This document shows positions 2,889 through 64,000 of a stretch of 64,000 nt of DNA, piece by piece; the first letter of the stretch is position 1; every line of letters starts with the position of its first letter. Below the pieces are notes generated by a model. That model made no database searches. It was not told the origin of the DNA and saw nothing but the letters and a program-made list of their open reading frames with translations. The DNA is from an uncultured Candidatus Micrarchaeota archaeon (lineage in GTDB: Archaea; Micrarchaeota; Micrarchaeia; Anstonellales; Bilamarchaeaceae). The stretch is taken from contig OY970229.1 of NCBI GenBank assembly GCA_963714085.1, forward strand, positions 224,001 to 288,000. Direction: 5' to 3'. Both the position numbers and the translations under genes were made by a program.

Positions 2889-3313
2889 GAACAGCACGGA
2901 TGAGCCCGTCGCCCGCGAGTCGGCGCTCGCGCTAGGGGTCGATGAAAAAGAAAAATGCTGTCTCTTGAAGGACGGCAAGATGATAGGATGAACTGAGTTT
3001 TTTGCGATAGCAATAGGCCTTTAGTAACCACCGGCTGAAACGCTCGGTTGCCCTAACGTCTTACACCGTGGTCCTATCGAACGGATCTGCTATCCGCGGC
3101 ATATGCCCCCTCGTTTTGAGATACGCTTCGACCTTAGATGCGTTCAGGTCTTATCGCACTAGCGCGTGGCTGCCCGGCAGTGCCAAATGACAACCGGTAG
3201 ACTAGAGGCGCCGAATCCCCGTTCCTCTCGTACTCAGGGATCCTTTCTCTCAAGGGGCAACACTCCCAGGAGATACTACCATACTGTCTCGCGACGTATT
3301 GAACCCAGCTCAT

Positions 3314-3359
3314 TTTCCCTACGTTAGATCCCCCAAGGTAAGCGGGGGAAAAGACGTAT
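3314..3359 (-). other. 23S rRNA BHB-type intron, 46 nt, after about E. coli C2573 (H90/H92)
   Basis: RNA reads UCCC-ACA-UACGU...ACGUA-GGGA-AAA; cutting after the 2nd bulge nt restores UUAAA-AUCCC-ACA-UGAG, and AUCCC pairs with the upstream GGGAU of H90. Confidence 0.85.
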
Positions 3360-3455
3360 GTGGGATTTTAATGGATGAACAACCCAACCCTTGGCAGGTC
3401 CTACCCTACCAGGATATCCCAAGCCGACAGCGATGTACCAAACCGCGGGGTCGAT

Positions 3456-3504
3456 ATATACGTACGACTAGTCATGTATGAAAAAAACGAATGACTGCGT
3501 CGCT
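3456..3504 (-). other. 23S rRNA BHB-type intron, 49 nt, after about E. coli 2477 (H89)
   Basis: GUAC-ACA ... GUAU-AUA motif; splicing gives GAGAGUACACAUCGAC, colinear with AAGAGUUCAUAUCGAC. Confidence 0.85.
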
Positions 3505-4032
3505 GTGTACTCTCACCCGCGACGAGCCTGTTACCTCCAGGGTAGCTTGTCTGACAGCTTGAATCCCCATCAAAAGGATTTCAAGGTTCGTTAGGCCCGA
3601 CTTTCGTCTCTGCGTTTCACGCTTTTAGAAACACAGTCAGCCAGACATTTGTCCTTAACCCTCTACTCCCGATTTCTGACCGGGATGAGTCTGACATTGG
3701 GCGCCCTTGTTTCTCTTTCGAGGGCGTACCGCCCCAGCCAAACTATCCACCTGACGCTGTCCTTTTTCAAGTAGAGCAATACGAGATGAACTAAGTGGTG
3801 TAACACTTTCGCCTATCCATACCCCGGAAGGCATGGCTTAACGGCTCCCACTTACTCTTGGTAGCCCATCTCATATCACAACATCAGGCTATAGTAAAGC
3901 TCCATGGAGTCTTCGTTTCCCTCTGGGAGATACCGGCATCTTCACCGGTCAGTGAGTTCACCAGGTCCCGTGCAGGGACATTGGGAGAGTCGTTACGCCA
4001 TTCATGCAAGCCGCCAATTAAGCGGCGAGGTA

Positions 4033-4168
4033 ATACGTCAAGGCCATCCTTTCTAAAAGGATTACCGAGGATCTCGCTACTCAATCTCATGGGCAACTTG
4101 CTTTCTAGGGCAACTCCTTCGCGCTCTCAAGGCATCCTCATATGTGAATATAAGGTCGATAGCCTTGT
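4033..4168 (-). other. 23S rRNA BHB-type intron, 136 nt, after about E. coli A1938
   Basis: GCGU-AAA-CAAGGC ... GCCUUG-ACGU-AUU; splicing gives GGUAGCGUAAUACCUCG, the same length as GGUAGCGAAAUUCCUUG. Confidence 0.85.
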
Positions 4169-6384
4169 TTACGCTACCTTAAGAGGGTCAGAGTTACCCC
4201 CGCTCTTTACTGGTCCTTTTTCGGGTTGAAACCCGCTTTCAGATACCAGCAGTGGGCAGGCGTCAGCCATCATACTCAGCCTTTCGGCCCTGCGATGACC
4301 TGTGTTTTTGGTAAACAGTCGCTCTCCCCTTGTTACTGAGACCACCGCCTTGCTCAGGCGATGGCACCCCTTATACCAAAGGTACGGGGCTAACTTGCCG
4401 AATTCCCTTGCTCGGGTTGTCCTGACACACCTTAGCCTTCTCAGCTAGAGCACCTGTACTAGTTCTCGGTACGGTTGCAGAGGGTCGTTCCGCTCCACTT
4501 TTCATGGGCCCCTGGATTTGATGGAATTGCCCCTTCGGCTTTCACCTGCTTCTCCTCACAATGAGACTCCACAGGCCTACATCCTACAGACATCTTGCGA
4601 TGCTCCACCTATCCGAAGGCGTCATGGAAACGGCTTGCGTTGCCGCGCCTACCTCCGCAGGGTCGGAATATTAACCGACTTCCCTGATTTCGGGCTTCAG
4701 GAATTGCCTTGGCCCTTAGGACCGCCTAACCCTCAGCTGAAGAACGTTGCTGAGGAATCCTTGCTCTATAAGGTGTCCAGAATTCTCGTCTGGATATGCT
4801 GCTACTAACACCAAGATATTCATAACAGGACGCTCCACACGACGTTACCGCCGTGCTTCTGCGCGACCCGTTCGCCCCCCTACTCGCATGCTTTTGGCAT
4901 CGGTGAGGTATCGGAAGCTGGTTTGAGCCCCGTGAATTTTCAGAGCCTGCACCCTCGATCGGTCCGCTGTTACGCGTTGTTTAAAGGATGGCTGCTTCTA
5001 AGCCTACCTCCCGATTGTTTTTGGATGGAAACTCCTTTACGATTAACACTTAACCAGCATTTAGGGCCCTTAGCCTCACGTATGGTCGTTCCCATACAGG
5101 CCCTCAGGCTTACCCCGAGGAACCCAACTGCCTCCTTCTACGAAGATATGGCATTCGGAGTTTGAGAGGATGGCGACCCCTTTCGGAGCCATTCCGCCCA
5201 ATCGGTGCTCTACCGCCATATCGTTCTCCAGAGACGCTGTGCTGAGACACATTTCGGAGGGAACCCGCTATCGCCGTGTTCGACAGGACTATCACCCCTA
5301 CACCCAAGTCACCTAAGTGGAATATACCAACATTAGTTGCGGGCCTCCATTGGTCGTCAGACCAACTTCGCCCTGCTCGGGTGTAGCTCACAACGGCTTC
5401 GGGTCTGTTAAGGGTGACTGATCGCGATTTACCACGACGCCCCTCGCGCATTGCTGCGTTGCGGGCACTCGCTTTCGCTTCGACTTTCATCTCGCCACAC
5501 CTAATAACTCCTTGGCTCTTGCTTCGAGAAGAAAGATACAACACTGGTGGAACCGTGTCGCTTGCGGCGTTGCCACCGTTCGCTTCCACGGTCATAAACC
5601 CTTTCATGCCGTACCATTCTGTGACCACATAATTTCAGGTTCTTTTGACACCGCTTCCGCGGTGCTTTTCAGCATTCGCTCGCGCTACTATTTCGCTATC
5701 GGTCTGAGGCCCCATGTTTAGATTTGGAGGTTGATGCCCCCACCTTCACGTCCCCTATCCGAGGGATGCTACTCTTCATGGTTCGCCCCCCTTTCCTTCG
5801 CATACGAGGCTATCACTCGCTATGGCACGGCATTCCAGCCGACTTCTGCTCGGAAAGAGGATACTACCCGCTACATCTACTCCGACGTTACCGCCGAAGA
5901 ATTCAGCGTGATCTGTCCGGCTTTCAATCGCTTTTACTTACCGGATCGCATTGCTTTCTCTTCCTTCCCCTACTAAGATGCTTCATTTCGGGGAATTGCT
6001 GCACTCTTACGTGCGCCGCCAAACCCCGGGATCGCAGACTGCGTGCGTCTCCCCCGGGCTTATCGCAGCTTGCCGCGTGGCCCTGCGGGCCTCAGCCAAG
6101 CCATCCACTATGTGGCGTAGCAAATTTGCATATCGCTACTAAACTCACTTCAGTAAAAATACCCGGATTTCTCCAGATAAATCTCCTAAAATCTTGCCGT
6201 CACTTCACACGCATCACAGCGCGCCGCACGAGGCGGCCCGCAGGCAACGGCGCAATCTGGCGCCGTCGCAGATTCCCCGAATCACGGGGAGAGACAGAAT
6301 ACTCGCTCTGGGTCCATGCATCTCTCATGCTCCGAGGAGCATACTCGACGTACAAACGAGCGGTAACCCAATAGTATGATTATA

Positions 6385-56019: not shown

Positions 56020-56141
56020 GAGCGGACATATACGGCAAAGACGATTTAATCATATCAGTTCAGGGAATCCTCAGGCGCCATGGGACGGCCTTTCATCAGA
56101 TTTATAAGTTATAAGCACGTCATCTGATGCAAGGTGGAATA

Positions 56142-57560
56142 ATGTCCGAAGACAAGCTGCTGAAGACTCTTAACCCGCATCAGAGGGCGTACGTGGATCT
56201 GGACCTCGCCAACCCGGCGAACGGGGAATACATGCTCGGCGCGTTCCGTCTCGTCCCTGCGGACGGGTGCAACGTGCTCCAGGCGGCCTGCGAGGTCGCC
56301 GCGGAATCGTCCACCGGGACCAATTTCCTGGTGAAGACCGAGACCCCGTTCTCCAAGCGGATGAACGCGCTGGTCTACAAGGTGGATTATGCGAAGAAGC
56401 TGGTATTCATCGCCTATCCGTGGAGGCTTTTCGACAGGCACGGGAACGTCCAGAACATACTGACGTACATCGTCGGGAACGTGCTCGGGATGAAGCAGGT
56501 CTCTGAGCTGAAGCTCATCGACGTCTGGTTCCCGCCGTCCATGCTCGAGCAGTACGACGGGCCGAGCTACACCCTGGACGACATGAGGGCGTACCTGAAC
56601 GCCTACGGAAGGCCGATCCTCGGCACCATAGTGAAGCCCAAGATGGGGCTCACGTCCGCGGAATACGCCGAGGTCTGCTACGACTTCTGGGTCGGCGGTG
56701 GCGACTTCGTGAAGAACGACGAGCCGCAGGCTGACCAGGACTTCTGCCCCTATGACAAGATGGTGAGGCACGTGAAGAAGGCCATGGACGCGGCCGTGAA
56801 GAAGACAGGGAAGAAGAAGGTCCACTCGTTCAACGTGTCCGCGGCGGACTTCGACATCATGATATCCAGGTGCGAGATGATACGCAATGCCGGGTTCGAG
56901 CCAGGGAGCTACGCCTTCCTCATAGACGGCCTGACCGCGGGCTGGATGGCGGTGCAGACCCTGAGGAGGAGGTATCCGGACGTGTTCATACACTTCCACC
57001 GCGCGGGCCATGGCGCCTTCACGAGGCCGGAGAACCCGATAGGCTTCTCCGTGCTGGTGCTCTCCAAATTCGCAAGATTGGCCGGCGCCTCCGGCGTGCA
57101 CACCGGCACGGCCGGGGTCGGGAAGATGGCCGGGAGCCCGGAGGAGGACATAATCTCCGCGCACAACATCCTGCGCTTCAAGGAGATGGGGCACATCTTC
57201 GAGCAGAGCTGGGCCACGATACCGGATAATAACAGGTACGCGCAGGAGCTAGTGCGCAACGACCTTGCGCACAAGGTCATACTCAAGGAGGACGACTGGC
57301 GCGGCATAAAGAAATGCTGCCCCATAGTGTCCGGCGGCCTCAACCCGACGCTCCTGGCCGAGTTCATAGACCTCATGGGGGGCGTGGACTTCATAACCAC
57401 CATGGGCGCGGGCTGCAACGCGCATCCGGAAGGAACGCAGGCCGGTGCGACCGCGCTGGTCCAGGCGTGCGAGGCTTATTCCAAAGGCATAGACATCAGG
57501 AAATACGCCAAGAACCATAAGGAGCTGGCGGAAGCGATAGAGTTCTTCTCGAAGAAGTAG
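56142..57560 (+). CDS. rbcL: RuBisCO large subunit, form II/III
   Basis: AAESSTGT, GTIVKPKMGL, GGDFVKNDE, HFHRAGHG, GKM, SGG; insertion before DWRG. Confidence 0.95.
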   Translation: MSEDKLLKTLNPHQRAYVDLDLANPANGEYMLGAFRLVPADGCNVLQAACEVAAESSTGTNFLVKTETPFSKRMNALVYKVDYAKKLVFIAYPWRLFDRHGNVQNILTYIVGNVLGMKQVSELKLIDVWFPPSMLEQYDGPSYTLDDMRAYLNAYGRPILGTIVKPKMGLTSAEYAEVCYDFWVGGGDFVKNDEPQADQDFCPYDKMVRHVKKAMDAAVKKTGKKKVHSFNVSAADFDIMISRCEMIRNAGFEPGSYAFLIDGLTAGWMAVQTLRRRYPDVFIHFHRAGHGAFTRPENPIGFSVLVLSKFARLAGASGVHTGTAGVGKMAGSPEEDIISAHNILRFKEMGHIFEQSWATIPDNNRYAQELVRNDLAHKVILKEDDWRGIKKCCPIVSGGLNPTLLAEFIDLMGGVDFITTMGAGCNAHPEGTQAGATALVQACEAYSKGIDIRKYAKNHKELAEAIEFFSKK

Positions 57561-58925: not shown

Positions 58926-59030
58926 CAGATAATAAGTGCAGGGGACGAAATCTCCGGGCAGGTCTGACCTTTCCTTAGCGCTGCGATGTCAAATTTGGCA
59001 TCAAGTAAAATATAGCCCATCTGCCGGAGT
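58926..59030 (+). repeat. Diverged partial copy of the 3' half of the integrase leader (60589-60700)
   Basis: TGCAGGGGACGA, GCAGGTCTGA, TTAGCGCT, GATGTCAAATTTGGCATCA and GCCGGA shared in the same order. Confidence 0.9.
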
Positions 59031-59227
59031 TAACCGGTTGCTGCCCATATATAGCACGACCTAACAGGAGCTGGCAAAATTAATTCAAAATATTGCTAGG
59101 CAATGATAACTGAGGATTTGAGCATTGATCCTCTCTTATCGTTAATCTTCATCCTGCTAAACTGATACAGAAACCATAAAACTATAATCATTCGATTACG
59201 TTATCGTTCTATATCAGGAAAAGTAAT

Positions 59228-60397
59228 CTACTTCGATTCTGCGAGCTGCTTGACCTGTTCAAGCACTCCTAAATCGAATACTTCTTCAAAAGGAGCATTA
59301 AAGTTGTTCACGCAGAACTTATGCAGCATTTTTCTCGCAATTTCATGTACATGCTCCGGATCGCTTTCAGTCAACATCGGCACAGGACCGAAACCGATTC
59401 CTTGTAATGCCTGGAGTATAAGCGCCTCGGATCCACCGTGTTCGGTGACCTTATTCAGAACACCTGCTGATTCACCTTGAACAGCAACATACATCATTAA
59501 TGCCAACTGATGAAAAGGTCGTTTACCATATGAGAGCTCTGCGCTAAGCGGAAACACTTCCTCACTTATCGCTAGCCTGGACTTCAGCTTAGCATGGATC
59601 AGTTCGTGGAAGATTAGGTCGTAGAGCATATCATGGATCGCTTTTTCTCTGTCATCTTCGGTCTTAAACTTGTTGTTCGCACGTGCATCACGGACGTACA
59701 ACGCAATCGCAAGCAGCATCTTGAGGGCATTCTGCTCTGGAACACCCCCATCCAAAGAGATCCGCCTAGCGAGTGAGAAGTATTCATCGGCAGAAGGCTC
59801 GGCGGGAGTAATGAATGCCTGAATGTCATTAGCATGTTGGTCTAATACGACCTGTGGAATTTGAAATGATTTAGAAAGCATCCCGGTTTTCAGATGTTCT
59901 CTGCCCATTTCATATTGTGCAAATTCACGCAGTTTGTCCTCATAAATCAGAATAACCTTCGCTTCATTGAAAGTTCGCCCTAGGATGCCATCCTTAACCT
60001 CTCCTTCTGTCCTTGACAGGACATAGACGTGAGTATCGCCTACAAGGGAATTCTTTCGTACCGTTCCCACAACTACATCTTCGTCTGGAAAGCTTATCAG
60101 AAGGATTTGATCCTTATCTCGGATAAAATGTTCTCCTTCAGGCCTGGAAGCTAACTTCCCGGCAAGTGATTTTACCGCAGGGTTGAGGGCAAACGAAAGC
60201 TGACGTTCCCAATTATCCAAGGAGGTTTCACTAATACTCAGCTTTTCTTTCCGAAGCCAATCGCTAAATTCTTTCATAGACTCCTCTGAAGTACCCATGC
60301 GCTTTGATCCAAAAACACTACGGCAGTTTGCGGCAGCGATTGCGTAAGGCATCGCAACCAGAGGGATTAGGACCTGACGTCTTGAATAAGTTTGCAT
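59228..60397 (-). CDS. Putative Tat-exported HEXXH zinc metallopeptidase-like protein
   Basis: SRRQVL twin-Arg signal followed by Cys; FHELIHA..EE; lower GC than the core genes. Confidence 0.6.
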   Translation of the reverse strand: MQTYSRRQVLIPLVAMPYAIAAANCRSVFGSKRMGTSEESMKEFSDWLRKEKLSISETSLDNWERQLSFALNPAVKSLAGKLASRPEGEHFIRDKDQILLISFPDEDVVVGTVRKNSLVGDTHVYVLSRTEGEVKDGILGRTFNEAKVILIYEDKLREFAQYEMGREHLKTGMLSKSFQIPQVVLDQHANDIQAFITPAEPSADEYFSLARRISLDGGVPEQNALKMLLAIALYVRDARANNKFKTEDDREKAIHDMLYDLIFHELIHAKLKSRLAISEEVFPLSAELSYGKRPFHQLALMMYVAVQGESAGVLNKVTEHGGSEALILQALQGIGFGPVPMLTESDPEHVHEIARKMLHKFCVNNFNAPFEEVFDLGVLEQVKQLAESK

Positions 60398-60482
60398 ATG
60401 TATATAATAATGGCTAAACTTTATAAAACGAATTTATCTTTGCCCTCGACCCTCGCTTTAAAAGCTCTGCTCTCCAGACCGT

Positions 60483-60699
60483 CTTTCGGTCGGACGGACC
60501 CATTGGCCTGAACTCAGGCCAGATCTGAAAGCGCTAGGGCAGGATTTGAGACCAGCTCTGAGGACACCACCAGGGTAAGACCTCAGAGCAGATCAGAATG
60601 CAGGGGACGAGTTCCCCGAGCAGGTCTGAGGTCTGAACCGTCTTTAGCGCTCTGATGTCAAATTTGGCATCAGTCATAAAATAGTCCGTCGGCCGGAAG
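60483..60699 (+). ncRNA. Putative structured leader RNA or recombination site upstream of the integrase
   Basis: Closing stem 60483-60499/60684-60699 encloses several helices; G.T pairs favour the + strand; TTTAAAA at 60457. Confidence 0.6.
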
Positions 60700-60706
60700 T
60701 GATGGC

Positions 60707-61906
60707 ATGGCGGATATAGATTTGTATAACTACCCGAGAAGGCTGAAAAGTGCGATTGATAAGGCGGATAAAGACGCGAAGGTCTGCCCGGACAACAAGC
60801 GGGACATCGTCTCTTTTTCCAAGATCCGGCTCGCGAAGGGTTCGAGCCACGGGCGGGTCGCCAAGGTAGTCTATTGCATGACGAAGTGGGCGAGATGGCT
60901 GGGAAAACCGTTCAGGGAAGCGACCAAAGACGAGCTTATCATGGCCGTGGGCAGCCTGGAAGACGAGGAGCTGTCCGAGTACACGAAATATGATCTGAAA
61001 ATCGTCCTGAAGATGTTCTACAAGTGGCTGGAAGGCAACGACGAGGTGATGCCCGCCAAGATAATCTGGCTCAAGCCGAAGATAAAGAACGAGAGCCACA
61101 AACTGCCGGAGGAACTGCTTAATGAAGAGGAGATTTTGAAGATAGCCGAGGCTACCGAGAACGTCAGGGATAAGGCGTTCGTGCTTATCCTGTATGAATC
61201 CGGCTGCAGAATAGGGGAATTGCTTACTTTGAGGATGAAAAACATCCAATTTGACCAGTACGGGGCCATCCTAAGGGTAAATGGAAAGACGGGGGACAGA
61301 CGGGTAAGGGTTATTAGCTCGGCCCCAGCCTTGGCTTCGTGGATCGGGCTTCACCCTATGGGAAAAGAGCCTGACGCCATGTTATGGCATTCGACCTGGA
61401 GAAACATCAATAGAGGCCAGAGGAACCTGTGCCATGGAACGGTTTACACCTTGCTTAAGCAGTATGCAGCCAAAGCAGGGATAAAGAAACGGATTTATCC
61501 GCACTTATTCAGGCATTCCAGGGCTACTTCTTTGGCTTGTAAATTGACCGAGGCACAGATGAAAGAGCATTTTGGGTGGGTGCAGGGCTCGGATATGGCA
61601 GCCACATATGTTCATCTTTCCGGGCGGGATGTTGACAATGCTCTTCTGAAATTGCAGGGACTGGTTCAAACTCAAGAGACAAAATCCGAGAAACTCAGTG
61701 TACGAGTATGTCCACGGTGCAAGGATCACAATTCGCCGGTCTCGAAATATTGTACTAAGTGCGGCCTTCCACTGGACGAGAACATGATAGCGAAAATCGA
61801 GGAGATGAAAGGGAAGAGTAATAACCTGATGAACCGGCTGATGGATGACGACGAATTCAAGAATTTCATGGTAAAGAGGATATCAGACCTTGGGCTTAGC
61901 CTTTGA
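60707..61906 (+). CDS. Tyrosine recombinase/integrase with a C-terminal zinc ribbon
   Basis: ESGCRIGE, GKTG.R, PHLFRHSRAT, FGW, YVHL; CPRC..CTKCG. Confidence 0.96.
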   Translation: MADIDLYNYPRRLKSAIDKADKDAKVCPDNKRDIVSFSKIRLAKGSSHGRVAKVVYCMTKWARWLGKPFREATKDELIMAVGSLEDEELSEYTKYDLKIVLKMFYKWLEGNDEVMPAKIIWLKPKIKNESHKLPEELLNEEEILKIAEATENVRDKAFVLILYESGCRIGELLTLRMKNIQFDQYGAILRVNGKTGDRRVRVISSAPALASWIGLHPMGKEPDAMLWHSTWRNINRGQRNLCHGTVYTLLKQYAAKAGIKKRIYPHLFRHSRATSLACKLTEAQMKEHFGWVQGSDMAATYVHLSGRDVDNALLKLQGLVQTQETKSEKLSVRVCPRCKDHNSPVSKYCTKCGLPLDENMIAKIEEMKGKSNNLMNRLMDDDEFKNFMVKRISDLGLSL

Positions 61907-62293
61907 TTTGCTTTCCTCTATGAGTTTATTGAGTTTAACCGCCCAAGCCGGGAGCTGCTTTTCGAGCTCTTTTTGTTCGGAGTCTGACATGATTGAAATC
62001 AGATTGAAGGACTACTTATTGGTTGATGGAAAATTTGATGCTGGGATGTTAAAGGTTCGAATCGTCCGAAAATGGCATATGCTCGGAAATCTGATTTCGG
62101 GTCAGTGCGCCTTACAAGGGAAGGTAACAACCTTTTTCGACCTTCGACACAGGTCGACTAGCGCCTAATGGCGTTAGAGCGTCATGGGCTAATCTTCAAA
62201 TAGGCTGCAGTCTAATATGATAATAGCGAGGAAAGGAACTGGAATCGAACAGCCCAGGAAAAGATAAAAGAATATTGGAAAGCGGACGAAATA

Positions 62294-63130
62294 GTGATTT
62301 ATATGGACCGCATCGATCAAGCATTAGCGAATCAAATACTAGACATGGGAAAGTTAATTCACATGTGGGGAGTTGAGGATGCGAGTTCATCTTTAAACTC
62401 AGCAAAAAGAGATTATTCAGCTAATGATTATAACCACGCAGTCGATTCGATGACTGATTGTAGCGAACGAATAGCCAAAGGCACCATTTTGTTACACCTA
62501 ATAGCTCTAGACCCCAAAAAGTTCAGATTCAATTTGAGACGTAAGAAAGAACTTCTTGATAACTACTCCCATTACCGTTCTCTTATTGAAAAAGGTATCG
62601 GGCACGATACGCCGAAGATTTTTCATGAAATATTGAGCTATTATTCGGAATCTACTGGGACTGTCGATTACCAGGCCTTTCAAGCATTCGAGAAAAATTT
62701 AGGTTGCGATGAAGATGGTATACTGAAAAACTTGGATAAGATTAAATATGACGAAGTCCATGCAGCTGTTACCGCGGCTCTTAACCAAATAAAAACATCA
62801 ACAGAATCCTCAGTTGGTTCAACTGCCGATGCGATGCTCGCAAATTCCGGAATGTTTAATCCGGTTGCAGCATCACTAGGCATCGAGAAAAAAACTGCGT
62901 TAGATACATATGAGAAGCATCACCTACTGGATCTTGATTCCGACGTATTAATACATACGAAAATATTTTCCTACTGGTATAGGAACTCAATCAGATACCG
63001 AGACAATCCCAAAAGAATAGATTTTAACAAAGAAGAATATCGTTGGTTTGTCGATGTGATTCCCGAGAACTTCGCGCTATTTGAAAAGGACATTGCCATA
63101 CTGCGTGGAATCTCTCGTAAAAAGGATTGA
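62294..63130 (+). CDS. HEPN-like domain protein
   Basis: SLNSAKRDY..DYNHAV..SERIAKG..GHD..IRY pattern; AT-rich. Confidence 0.55.
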   Translation: MIYMDRIDQALANQILDMGKLIHMWGVEDASSSLNSAKRDYSANDYNHAVDSMTDCSERIAKGTILLHLIALDPKKFRFNLRRKKELLDNYSHYRSLIEKGIGHDTPKIFHEILSYYSESTGTVDYQAFQAFEKNLGCDEDGILKNLDKIKYDEVHAAVTAALNQIKTSTESSVGSTADAMLANSGMFNPVAASLGIEKKTALDTYEKHHLLDLDSDVLIHTKIFSYWYRNSIRYRDNPKRIDFNKEEYRWFVDVIPENFALFEKDIAILRGISRKKD

Positions 63131-63134
63131 GAAA

Positions 63135-63875
63135 ATGAATGATGAAACTACCAAGAAACTTCAAGAGATTCGGAACCGGTTCGACAAACTAGAAGAAGCT
63201 GTTAAAATTAAAGACGTCGCTATCAGAAAGATAGTTGATGAAGTTGGCTTAGCTAATGTAAAACCGCGTAGCCTTGCTCACTATCTTCTTCTATGGGGGT
63301 TATTCTCAAAATCCAATGTTATTGATAAAGAGTTGCGGCGTGAGCTTGAAGAAAGTAATCCTTGGCCTTTTTTTATTCTACTCAGGCATCAACTTGAGAT
63401 GTCTGCTACGGTAAATTGGGTACTAAAAAATGAAGATGTTGAAAAAATTGCATTTGGAACAAAACCTTACGATAAAGAAGACAAACGACTTGGAATGCCC
63501 ATAGGGTATCTTTCTAGGCCAGATATCGTGTGGCTTAACATTCCACATATAATGGACTTAATCCGGGAAATGGATAAAGAAATTAGGAAAAAAAGATCTC
63601 CCAATGATATTGAAAAGGATGGTTTTACATCAATTGAAGCAATTTATGGATTATTATCAGATTTATGCCACCCAAACGCCTTCGGACTTCATCTTTTTTT
63701 TAATTCAGCAGCGCGCACACCAAGAAAATTTACTACACACCCAAAATTTGAAGGTGAGCAACTAGATTATTGCACAAAATTTTATATTGAAATCTCAGAA
63801 TTCCTTATAACAGCGTTAGAGCTATACGTTTCTCATATTGAGGAAAAAATTGAAGAACTAGCAAAAAGAGTCTGA
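63135..63875 (+). CDS. Helical accessory protein (DUF5677/HEPN-like)
   Basis: LLRHQLE and IYGLLSDLCHPN motifs; very AT-rich. Confidence 0.5.
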   Translation: MNDETTKKLQEIRNRFDKLEEAVKIKDVAIRKIVDEVGLANVKPRSLAHYLLLWGLFSKSNVIDKELRRELEESNPWPFFILLRHQLEMSATVNWVLKNEDVEKIAFGTKPYDKEDKRLGMPIGYLSRPDIVWLNIPHIMDLIREMDKEIRKKRSPNDIEKDGFTSIEAIYGLLSDLCHPNAFGLHLFFNSAARTPRKFTTHPKFEGEQLDYCTKFYIEISEFLITALELYVSHIEEKIEELAKRV

Positions 63876-64000
63876 TAAGCATGGTAGGGTACGAGAATCA
63901 TAAGTGGAAGTCGAATCCCTTCGTGATCGACCCGGTGCCGGACAGACACCTCCATAATCGAGGACATCCGCTCTAAGGTGGAGCTTCTTTAGTAATTTGA

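What the first reader, a model, noticed from the sequence alone, without database searches (positions are those of the whole stretch)
60483..61906. Tyrosine recombinase preceded by a ~215-nt fully enclosed, possibly switchable structured leader
Seen: between a TATA box (60457) and the integrase ATG (60707) almost every segment can pair. A 16-bp closing stem with one bulge (60483-60499/60684-60699) overlaps the GGAAGTGA RBS. Inside are TGGCCTG/CAGGCCA, AGCGCTAGGG/CTTTAGCGCT, GCTCTGAGG/CCTCAGAGC, GGGGA/TCCCC and CTGATGTCA/TGGCATCAG. AGACCTCAGA (60578-87) can alternatively pair perfectly with TCTGAGGTCT (60625-34), a mutually exclusive fold. Non-Watson-Crick pairs are G.T on the + strand. Known: tyrosine recombinases are not generally described with a cognate structured RNA, although integron integrases use folded ssDNA sites and IS110 recombinases use bridge RNAs. 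Inference: an undescribed cis-regulatory RNA, recombinase-associated ncRNA or folded att site.
Basis: partly seen in the sequence, partly recalled or inferred. Interest (0 to 1): 0.8.

Follow-up and report, generated by a model that had tools for sequence, protein, structure and literature searches.

The report
Split RNA helix joined by excision
The folded stretch is the joined attachment site of a mobile element in a tiny archaeon, and across this integrase family the element's two far-apart ends carry matching halves of one helix that can only form once the ends are joined, probably as an RNA that ties integrase production to excision.

Summary
The fold is real (z -7.7), but this is not a fixed leader. 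It is an attP-like junction: arm A + 14-bp core (3' end of tRNA-Leu) + arm B. It arose where a 20-kb conjugative-type element integrated behind a 1.66-kb integrase-less unit; only 3 of 12 close homologues show such a junction in the chromosome. Inner stems and the 'switch' are largely the dyad symmetry of an att site.

The closing helix (P1) is the new part. In 17 elements with both ends (integrases 51-100% identical), the far end carries a TATA box. About 29 nt later starts a strand complementary to the bases just before the integrase Shine-Dalgarno. Sequences differ wholesale between subfamilies, yet cognate pairs bind far better than non-cognate ones (-17.7 vs -8.5 kcal/mol). The rule located att ends in 7 of 48 held-out loci (0.5 expected).

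Best reading: a Pcirc-like junction transcript with a conserved structured 5' leader, formed only after excision or tandem stacking. There are no RNA data, wobble asymmetry is not significant, and RBS sequestration is not supported. The scan noted such element stacks before on other DNA; I found no note or paper on the split helix.

The parts
58936..59033 (+). Left end of the small integrase-less unit: core copy plus a degenerate arm B (palindrome and P1 3' strand kept, start codon lost)
   Evidence: 75% identical to 60589-60697
59228..60397 (-). Only cargo ORF (389 aa) of the 1,662-bp integrase-less unit; no family hit
   Evidence: no homologue in the fetched loci or elsewhere in the genome; unit size
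60457..60464 (+). TATA box at the distal end of arm A (proposed Pcirc-like promoter facing the core)
   Evidence: conserved with fixed spacing in arm A copies; tRNA-promoter PWM 7.9 forward, 9.1 reverse, so orientation is not fixed by score; the same motif lies 30-33 nt before the ATG of a related integrase subfamily
60486..60499 (+). P1 5' strand, beginning at the predicted transcription start (about 60486-60488)
60500..60597 (+). Rest of arm A: hairpin 60504-60521, cross-arm strand 60530-60539, hairpin 60555-60589; three 15-bp quasi-palindromic repeats start at 60514, 60547 and 60583
   Evidence: local hairpins covary in 17 arm A copies
60598..60611 (+). att core, 14 bp, reverse complement of the 3' end of tRNA-Leu(GAG); centre of the dyad symmetry
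   Evidence: identical at genome 304,581-304,594, overlapping tRNA-Leu c304,582-304,665
60612..60683 (+). Arm B: core-flanking inverted site, cross-arm strand 60642-60651, conserved palindrome 60652-60673, A/T box 60677-60684 (weak internal TATA candidate)
60684..60696 (+). P1 3' strand, ending at the edge of the Shine-Dalgarno
60695..60702 (+). Shine-Dalgarno of the integrase
   Evidence: 7 of 8 complementary to the 16S 3' end found at genome 1,510,791
60707..61906 (+). Intact tyrosine integrase, 399 aa, XerA-like fold, with a C-terminal four-cysteine zinc-ribbon-like segment and helical tail
   Evidence: PF00589; invariant R168, K194, H266, R269, Y301 and C335, C338, C349, C352 in 34 homologues
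61907..64000 (.). Start of the cargo of the 19,983-bp element. It runs past the window to its own arm A and tRNA-Leu at genome 304,416-304,665, and encodes VirB4-like ATPase, pilin-like and Orc1/Cdc6-like proteins

Best explanation
SHOWN: 60457-60706 is an attP-type junction (arm A - tRNA-Leu 3' core - arm B). It was rebuilt in the chromosome because the 20-kb integrase element sits in tandem behind a small integrase-less unit at the same tRNA. Normally arm B lies before the integrase and arm A at the far end, so the two meet only in the excised circle. SHOWN by comparison: across the integrase clade, arm A carries a TATA box, and about 29 nt later a strand complementary to the bases just before the integrase SD in arm B; the sequence turns over but the pairing is kept. 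INFERRED: the TATA is a Pcirc-like promoter. After excision (or tandem stacking) it makes an RNA that runs through the att site into the integrase. P1 pairs the first nucleotides of this RNA with the SD-adjacent bases, closing the hairpin-rich att sequence into one domain with the SD just outside. This would give a protected, translatable integrase mRNA only when the ends are joined, favouring re-integration. Most inner stems come from the dyad symmetry that the recombinase uses in dsDNA.
For: Junction. P1 cognate vs non-cognate ends, three tests: blind TATA choice -13.3 vs -8.4 kcal/mol, 0 of 20,000 permutations, n=21; strand-neutral score 7.8 vs 5.9, 0 of 20,000; hand-set TATA -17.7 vs -8.5, cognate ranked 1st in 10 and 1st or 2nd in 15 of 17. 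Anchoring: TATA to P1 29.6+/-0.8 nt and P1 to ATG 11.7+/-1.7 nt, while distances to the core vary 43-114 and 77-193 nt; 12 of 14 strand-neutral hits lie 28-31 nt after a TATA. Cognate specificity stops at the predicted start (p=0.10 upstream). Held-out prediction of far ends: 7 of 48 vs 0.5 expected; 6 of the 7 hits at or below -16 kcal/mol. Rebuilt junction RNAs fold at mean z -6.7 vs -2.9 for the integrated ends, SD more open in 15 of 17 and 5 of 6 held-out. Bulges and 50-60-nt hairpin inserts are tolerated in the arms. The four elements without P1 fall outside the P1 clade; three have a canonical TATA about 30 nt before the ATG and the fourth further up. The Pcirc precedent is in PMC5812530 (passages).
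Against: No G.T over A.C excess, so the strand is not fixed by wobble pairs; the top strand folds better in only 13 of 17. TATA orientation is ambiguous by PWM (forward higher in 8 of 13 correctly picked boxes). P1 sequence changes follow integrase subfamilies, as co-evolving protein-binding sites would. 17 of 19 integrase-less units keep TATA plus the P1 5' strand but only 5 keep its partner, which hints at a second, partner-free role. An anti-SD switch in arm B alone is not supported (7 of 17), and in the window arm B alone leaves the SD open (0.66). The hybrid junction in L124 does not form P1. TATA and P1 limits were set by hand, and kin are not independent.
Confidence: 0.6

Rival explanations
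1. Pure dsDNA symmetry. All stems, P1 included, are inverted binding sites (core-type, arm-type or operator) for the integrase, perhaps its C-terminal zinc ribbon, or for an accessory protein. They co-evolve with the protein, and any fold is a by-product.
For: Arm A and the reverse complement of arm B are homologous end to end. Seven TCWGA pentamers and three 15-bp dyads lie in the junction, against 0.9 pentamers per kb genome-wide. The symmetry centre lies in the core. No wobble asymmetry. Arm A is kept without its partner in most integrase-less units.
Against: P1 is spaced to the TATA and the ATG, not to the core. It carries one-sided bulges that would break a protein's register. Complementarity ends at the predicted start. 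A middle cross-arm stem changes wholesale on both sides in one lineage (by eye). The predicted integrase model shows no lambda-type N-terminal arm-binding domain.
Confidence: 0.2
2. The junction transcript is a discrete non-coding RNA of about 210 nt, closed by P1, that binds the integrase (for example through the zinc ribbon) as a cofactor, inhibitor or directionality factor. The integrase mRNA is then made separately, leaderless, from the A/T box 30 nt before the ATG.
For: 5'-3' closing helix beginning at the predicted start, typical of stable RNAs (established knowledge). Covarying local hairpins: 88.9% paired vs 79.4% shuffled, 28 vs 10.9 double changes, often with GAAA loops (by eye). A TATA-like box about 30 nt before the ATG across the family. 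An invariant C-terminal zinc ribbon. IS110 recombinases use a cognate RNA (PMC11208158, search listing only; its junction origin is recalled).
Against: No terminator after P1; a conserved SD follows at once. Length and inner structure vary greatly (153-265 nt). I saw no loop outside the core that tracks the tRNA target (by eye). The transcript is antisense to the tRNA in some subfamilies and sense in others.
Confidence: 0.12
3. Folded single-stranded DNA attP (CTXphi- or integron-like), formed after conjugative ssDNA transfer or by cruciform extrusion and used as the integration substrate.
For: The element encodes a VirB4-like ATPase and a pilin-like protein. The top strand folds at -52 vs -46 kcal/mol with DNA parameters. 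Long-range arm complementarity is conserved.
Against: The crossover core sits at the apex, in a loop or short hairpin, not in a duplex site made from two distant copies as in CTXphi (PMC5357621 passages). Ordinary attL and attR with direct core repeats are left. The integron-integrase model scores 44.7 bits vs cutoff 265. P1 is anchored to transcription and translation signals.
Confidence: 0.08

Closest known systems
ICEclc Pcirc/Pint arrangement (intB13), PMC5812530, passages read
   Same: An outward-facing promoter at the far end of a tRNA-integrated element is placed before the integrase gene on excision; a weaker promoter lies directly before the gene.
   Different: The passages describe no paired RNA helix split between the two ends. 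Here a covarying 5'-to-SD helix is conserved, in an archaeal family, and the promoter activity is only predicted.
Tandem accretion of ICE/IME with CIMEs and chimerical attI sites, PMC5704250, passages read
   Same: An incoming element integrates at the att site of a decayed, integrase-less resident at a tRNA 3' end, leaving a chimeric attI between them. This is the window's anatomy.
   Different: Here the chimeric site also rebuilds a promoter-helix-SD unit in front of the integrase.
Classical (non-suicidal, pNOB8/SNJ2-type) archaeal tRNA-targeting integrases and cryptic or conjugative integrated elements; PMC8371274 and PMC6563490, passages read
   Same: Intact XerA-like integrase, short core at a tRNA 3' end, tandem arrays.
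   Different: C-terminal zinc ribbon and long symmetric arms with P1. The words 'zinc' and 'DPANN' do not occur in PMC8371274; membership of a named family was not tested.
CTXphi attP(+) and integron attC folded ssDNA sites; PMC5357621 passages for CTXphi, attC recalled
   Same: Long intrastrand pairing at an attachment site of a tyrosine recombinase.
   Different: There the fold creates the duplex recombination site. Here the crossover lies at the apex of the fold.
IS110 bridge RNA (PMC11208158, search listing only) and lambda sib retroregulation (recalled)
   Same: RNA structure whose existence or effect depends on the recombination state of the element (recalled for both).
   Different: No programmable target loops were seen; sib acts 3' of int, while this helix acts 5'.

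Membership tests
tRNA-targeting integrative element with tyrosine integrase (classical type) | Intact tyrosine recombinase with catalytic R-K-H-R-Y residues | tested here: met
tRNA-targeting integrative element with tyrosine integrase (classical type) | Direct core repeats, one overlapping a restored tRNA 3' end | tested here: met
tRNA-targeting integrative element with tyrosine integrase (classical type) | Excision to a circle | tested here: inconclusive
   no joints in two contig sets, one partial
Tandem CIME-ICE accretion with chimeric attI | Integrase-less unit with both att ends stacked before an intact element at one target | tested here: met
Pcirc-type junction promoter | Promoter at the far end, facing the core, fused to the integrase on joining | tested here: inconclusive
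   conserved TATA at fixed spacing; orientation ambiguous by PWM
Pcirc-type junction promoter | Higher integrase transcription from the joined form | not testable with these tools
   no RNA holder listed
Integron (IntI/attC) | Integron integrase family | tested here: not met
   TIGR02249 44.7 bits vs cutoff 265
Integron or CTXphi-type folded ssDNA site | Crossover inside a duplex formed by the fold | tested here: not met
   core at the apex of the fold
IS110 bridge-RNA systems | DEDD recombinase | tested here: not met
   tyrosine recombinase
IS110 bridge-RNA systems | RNA loops that covary with target and donor | tested here: inconclusive
   none seen by eye outside the core-flanking dyad; no formal test
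Known Rfam RNA family | Match at gathering score | tested here: not met
Cis-regulatory structured RNA | Pairing kept through changes on both sides | tested here: met
   no phylogeny-corrected test
Cis-regulatory structured RNA | Strand-specific wobble bias | tested here: inconclusive
   15 vs 13 and 12 vs 7

The most novel reading that the evidence does not exclude
A widespread archaeal tyrosine-integrase clade makes a cognate structured RNA whose two halves are encoded at opposite ends of the element and are joined only by recombination. The RNA is bound by the integrase (C-terminal zinc ribbon) and sets the direction or rate of recombination, and integrase-less satellites keep the promoter half to switch on the integrase of whichever element lands next to them.
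Probability: 0.12. Interest if true: 0.9.

Novelty: new variant of a known kind. Interest (0 to 1): 0.62.

Why it matters
Junction-made promoters and tandem accretion are known, but a conserved helix split between attL and attR would add an RNA-structure layer to how integrative elements sense their own excision. It would be a recombination-gated RNA module in archaea, testable with a small reporter and compensatory mutants. It is also useful at once: the pairing rule finds the far ends of these elements from the 18 bases before the integrase. The integrase family matched in 123 of 401 genomes sampled from the phylum, so the module may be common in DPANN archaea.

Tried and rejected
Rfam scans: nothing. 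SRP or RNase P identity was considered by eye and not supported by Rfam. Folding the 250 nt upstream of homologues: the four closest give z -1.5 to +0.1, so it is not a fixed leader. Viral contigs: no relative. Sequencing runs: no RNA holder listed; contigs of two DNA runs gave no joints; neither is evidence either way. RBS-sequestration model: upstream-of-start bases are not cognate-specific for the SD region (p=0.10). Anti-anti-SD switch model: arm B alone masks the SD more than shuffles in only 7 of 17. G.T strand test: not significant. Guide-RNA covariation with the target: none seen by eye. Of 116 integrase loci, 23 gave a candidate far end. I dropped 4 as spurious or wrong-copy repeats (L131, L173, L106, the tRNA-Asn locus of the own genome) and added 2 by hand (L009, L012), giving 21; 4 of these lack P1, leaving 17. 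The blind TATA pick missed the hand-set box in 4 of 17. L131 counts among the held-out hits, but its far end had been seen. 41 of 48 held-out loci gave no att repeat at the predicted site; many fetched stretches may not reach the far end. Scripts 47 and 97 crashed (97 after two duplex rows). Paper searches that found no description of this RNA or family: (listings only). No supplements were read. The covariance model R1 was built but not used.

Full report
OBSERVATION. The region folds at -119.3 kcal/mol, z -7.69, with 0 of 200 shuffles as good; the other strand gives z -3.99. Rfam has no family for it. The ORF at 60707-61906 is a tyrosine recombinase (PF00589). Its catalytic residues and four C-terminal cysteines are invariant in 34 homologues. 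The predicted model (pLDDT 80.7) starts directly with a helical domain and matches XerA best. Most of the 26 genome relatives are titled Micrarchaeota.

WHAT THE REGION IS. The window is G000:C1:224001-288000. The left part of the 'leader' recurs at genome 304,432-304,594 (86%), where it abuts tRNA-Leu(GAG). The right part recurs at window 58926-59028. The shared 14 bases (60598-60611) are the reverse complement of the tRNA 3' end. The order is therefore: core-armB, a 1,662-bp unit with one ORF, armA-core-armB, the integrase and 20 kb of low-GC cargo with VirB4-like, pilin-like and Orc1-like genes, then armA-core-tRNA. This is tandem accretion with a chimeric attI, as described in PMC5704250 (passages). 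The closest homologues carry only core plus arm B upstream and do not fold (z -1.5 to +0.1). Three of 12 loci at 70% identity or more have the full junction: the window, L066 and L124. One of L066's two junctions folds alike (z -8.4); L124's does not form the closing helix.

WHAT IS ORDINARY SYMMETRY. Arm A and the reverse complement of arm B are homologous. The 'alternative' pair 60578-87/60625-34 is centred on 60606, inside the core, as inverted core-flanking sites of a tyrosine-recombinase att should be (established knowledge). Three 15-bp quasi-palindromes and seven TCWGA pentamers lie in the junction, and such repeats can pair in several ways. I read the 'switch' as a by-product. The crossover lies at the apex of the fold, unlike CTXphi, where pairing of two distant sites makes the duplex substrate (PMC5357621 passages).

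WHAT IS NOT ORDINARY. I searched 116 integrase loci for both ends using only direct repeats and tRNA overlap. This gave 23; 4 were dropped and 2 added by hand, leaving 21. With TATA boxes chosen blind by a matrix trained on this genome's tRNA promoters, the 20 nt after TATA+27 at the far end pair with the bases before the same element's SD at -13.3 kcal/mol. Non-cognate pairs give -8.4, and 0 of 20,000 permutations reach the cognate mean. A Watson-Crick-only test agrees (7.8 vs 5.9; 14 of 21 score 7 or more, against 22% of non-cognate pairs), and 12 of these 14 start 28-31 nt after a TATA. Seventeen elements show the helix (integrases 51-100% identical to the window's). With hand-set boxes their cognate energy is -17.7 vs -8.5, ranked first in 10 and in the top two in 15. 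The helix sequence differs between subfamilies while pairing is kept. It is fixed to the TATA (29.6+/-0.8 nt) and the ATG (11.7+/-1.7 nt) but not to the core (43-114 and 77-193 nt) (limits hand-set). tRNA genes here start mostly 32-44 nt after their TATA, so the helix begins at about the expected transcription start. Complementarity upstream of that point is not cognate-specific (p=0.10).

As a held-out test I used only the 18 bases before the SD and the TATA matrix. The best site downstream was followed by an att repeat in 7 of 48 loci (0.5 expected), including 6 of the 7 hits at or below -16 kcal/mol. All six fold with the closing helix; one, L131, had been seen before. The 23 helix-bearing integrases form one clade in a midpoint-rooted tree, and the four without it lie outside, so they are a weak, non-independent control. 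Local hairpins of arm A also covary (88.9% paired vs 79.4%; 28 vs 10.9 double changes), a control that ignores kinship.

MECHANISM. An outward promoter fused to the integrase on excision is known for ICEclc (PMC5812530 passages). I infer the same here. The TATA motif of arm A also sits 30-33 nt before the ATG of a related subfamily, which supports its direction, although the matrix does not. Rebuilt junction RNAs fold at mean z -6.7, against -5.2 for the other strand and -2.9 for the integrated ends. The SD is more open than in the integrated state in 15 of 17. In the window the SD is 0.84-0.89 unpaired for starts at 60486 or later and 0.26-0.37 for starts at 60483 or earlier. The likeliest role of P1 is to close the hairpin-rich att sequence into one domain, shield the 5' end and leave the SD free (inference).

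AGAINST. No RNA data exist in reach. Wobble pairs do not pick a strand (15 vs 13; 12 vs 7). An anti-SD switch is not supported (7 of 17). Seventeen of 19 integrase-less units keep the TATA and P1 5' strand while only 5 keep the partner strand. This fits a protein-binding or promoter role for arm A, or, speculatively, pairing with the next element's arm B: the window's hybrid pairs at -21.9 against -12.5 for the small unit's own ends, but L124's hybrid is poor. Helix variants track integrase subfamilies, as co-evolving DNA sites would.

COMPARISON AND NOVELTY. The element is a new member of an ordinary kind (PMC8371274 and PMC6563490, passages; PMC8138268 passages gave no match to this family). 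It fails tests for integron and IS110 membership. The split helix was not found in paper searches (listings only) or in the scan's notes. Earlier notes describe the same stack here and similar stacks in other genomes; my junction reading was written before I saw them. Lambda sib and the junction origin of IS110 bridge RNA are recalled, not read.

VERDICT. The att-junction identity is near certain. The structured junction leader is the best explanation at 0.6. Novelty: new variant of a known kind. Interest 0.62.

Noticed in passing
L055, L061, L066, L119, L120, L124 (att arms); L039, L048, L057, L005 (tRNA T-arms): Near-perfect double-hairpin inserts of about 50-60 nt recur inside att arms and inside tRNA 3' halves; the same insert appears in several genomes at the same arm positions. 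Possibly a tiny palindromic mobile element or non-canonical tRNA introns.
   Followed up: no
L022, L090, L092, L096, L098, L101, L102, L104, L106, L110, L112, just upstream of the recombinase: A family at about 40% identity has a self-contained long hairpin with compensatory changes between two TATA-like boxes directly before the gene, with no tRNA seen nearby. It may be a fused version of the module or a dif/attI-like site.
   Followed up: no
genome G000 487,070-498,410 and 637,309-638,360 (outside the window): Further stacks of units from this and a sister arm family at tRNA-Leu genes, with no hit to this integrase; one tRNA is intron-bearing and called Pro by ARAGORN although it looks like Leu.
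   Followed up: partly
L119, L120, L121, L123, L135: Arrays of three to six small units (1-4 kb) separated by core copies, mostly next to tRNA-Leu/Ser genes, resembling cassette arrays.
   Followed up: partly
genome G000 1,308,139-1,315,360: A second element of the same integrase clade (61% identity) at tRNA-Glu, 6.9 kb, with its own TATA and a 10-bp perfect P1.
   Followed up: yes
L175, L176, L184, L190, L167, L171, L173: A subfamily with a canonical TATA directly before the integrase (about 30 nt before the ATG in most) and, where the far end was found, no P1; likely leaderless and junction-independent.
   Followed up: partly
window 60652-60673: The palindrome before the A/T box is conserved in outline across nearly all subfamilies; in several its 3' half can instead pair with arm A. 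Candidate operator or real conformational switch.
   Followed up: partly
window 56127-57560 and 3002-6132: A RuBisCO large-subunit gene lies just left of the island. The 23S rRNA gene is far from the 16S 3' end at genome 1.51 Mb.
   Followed up: no
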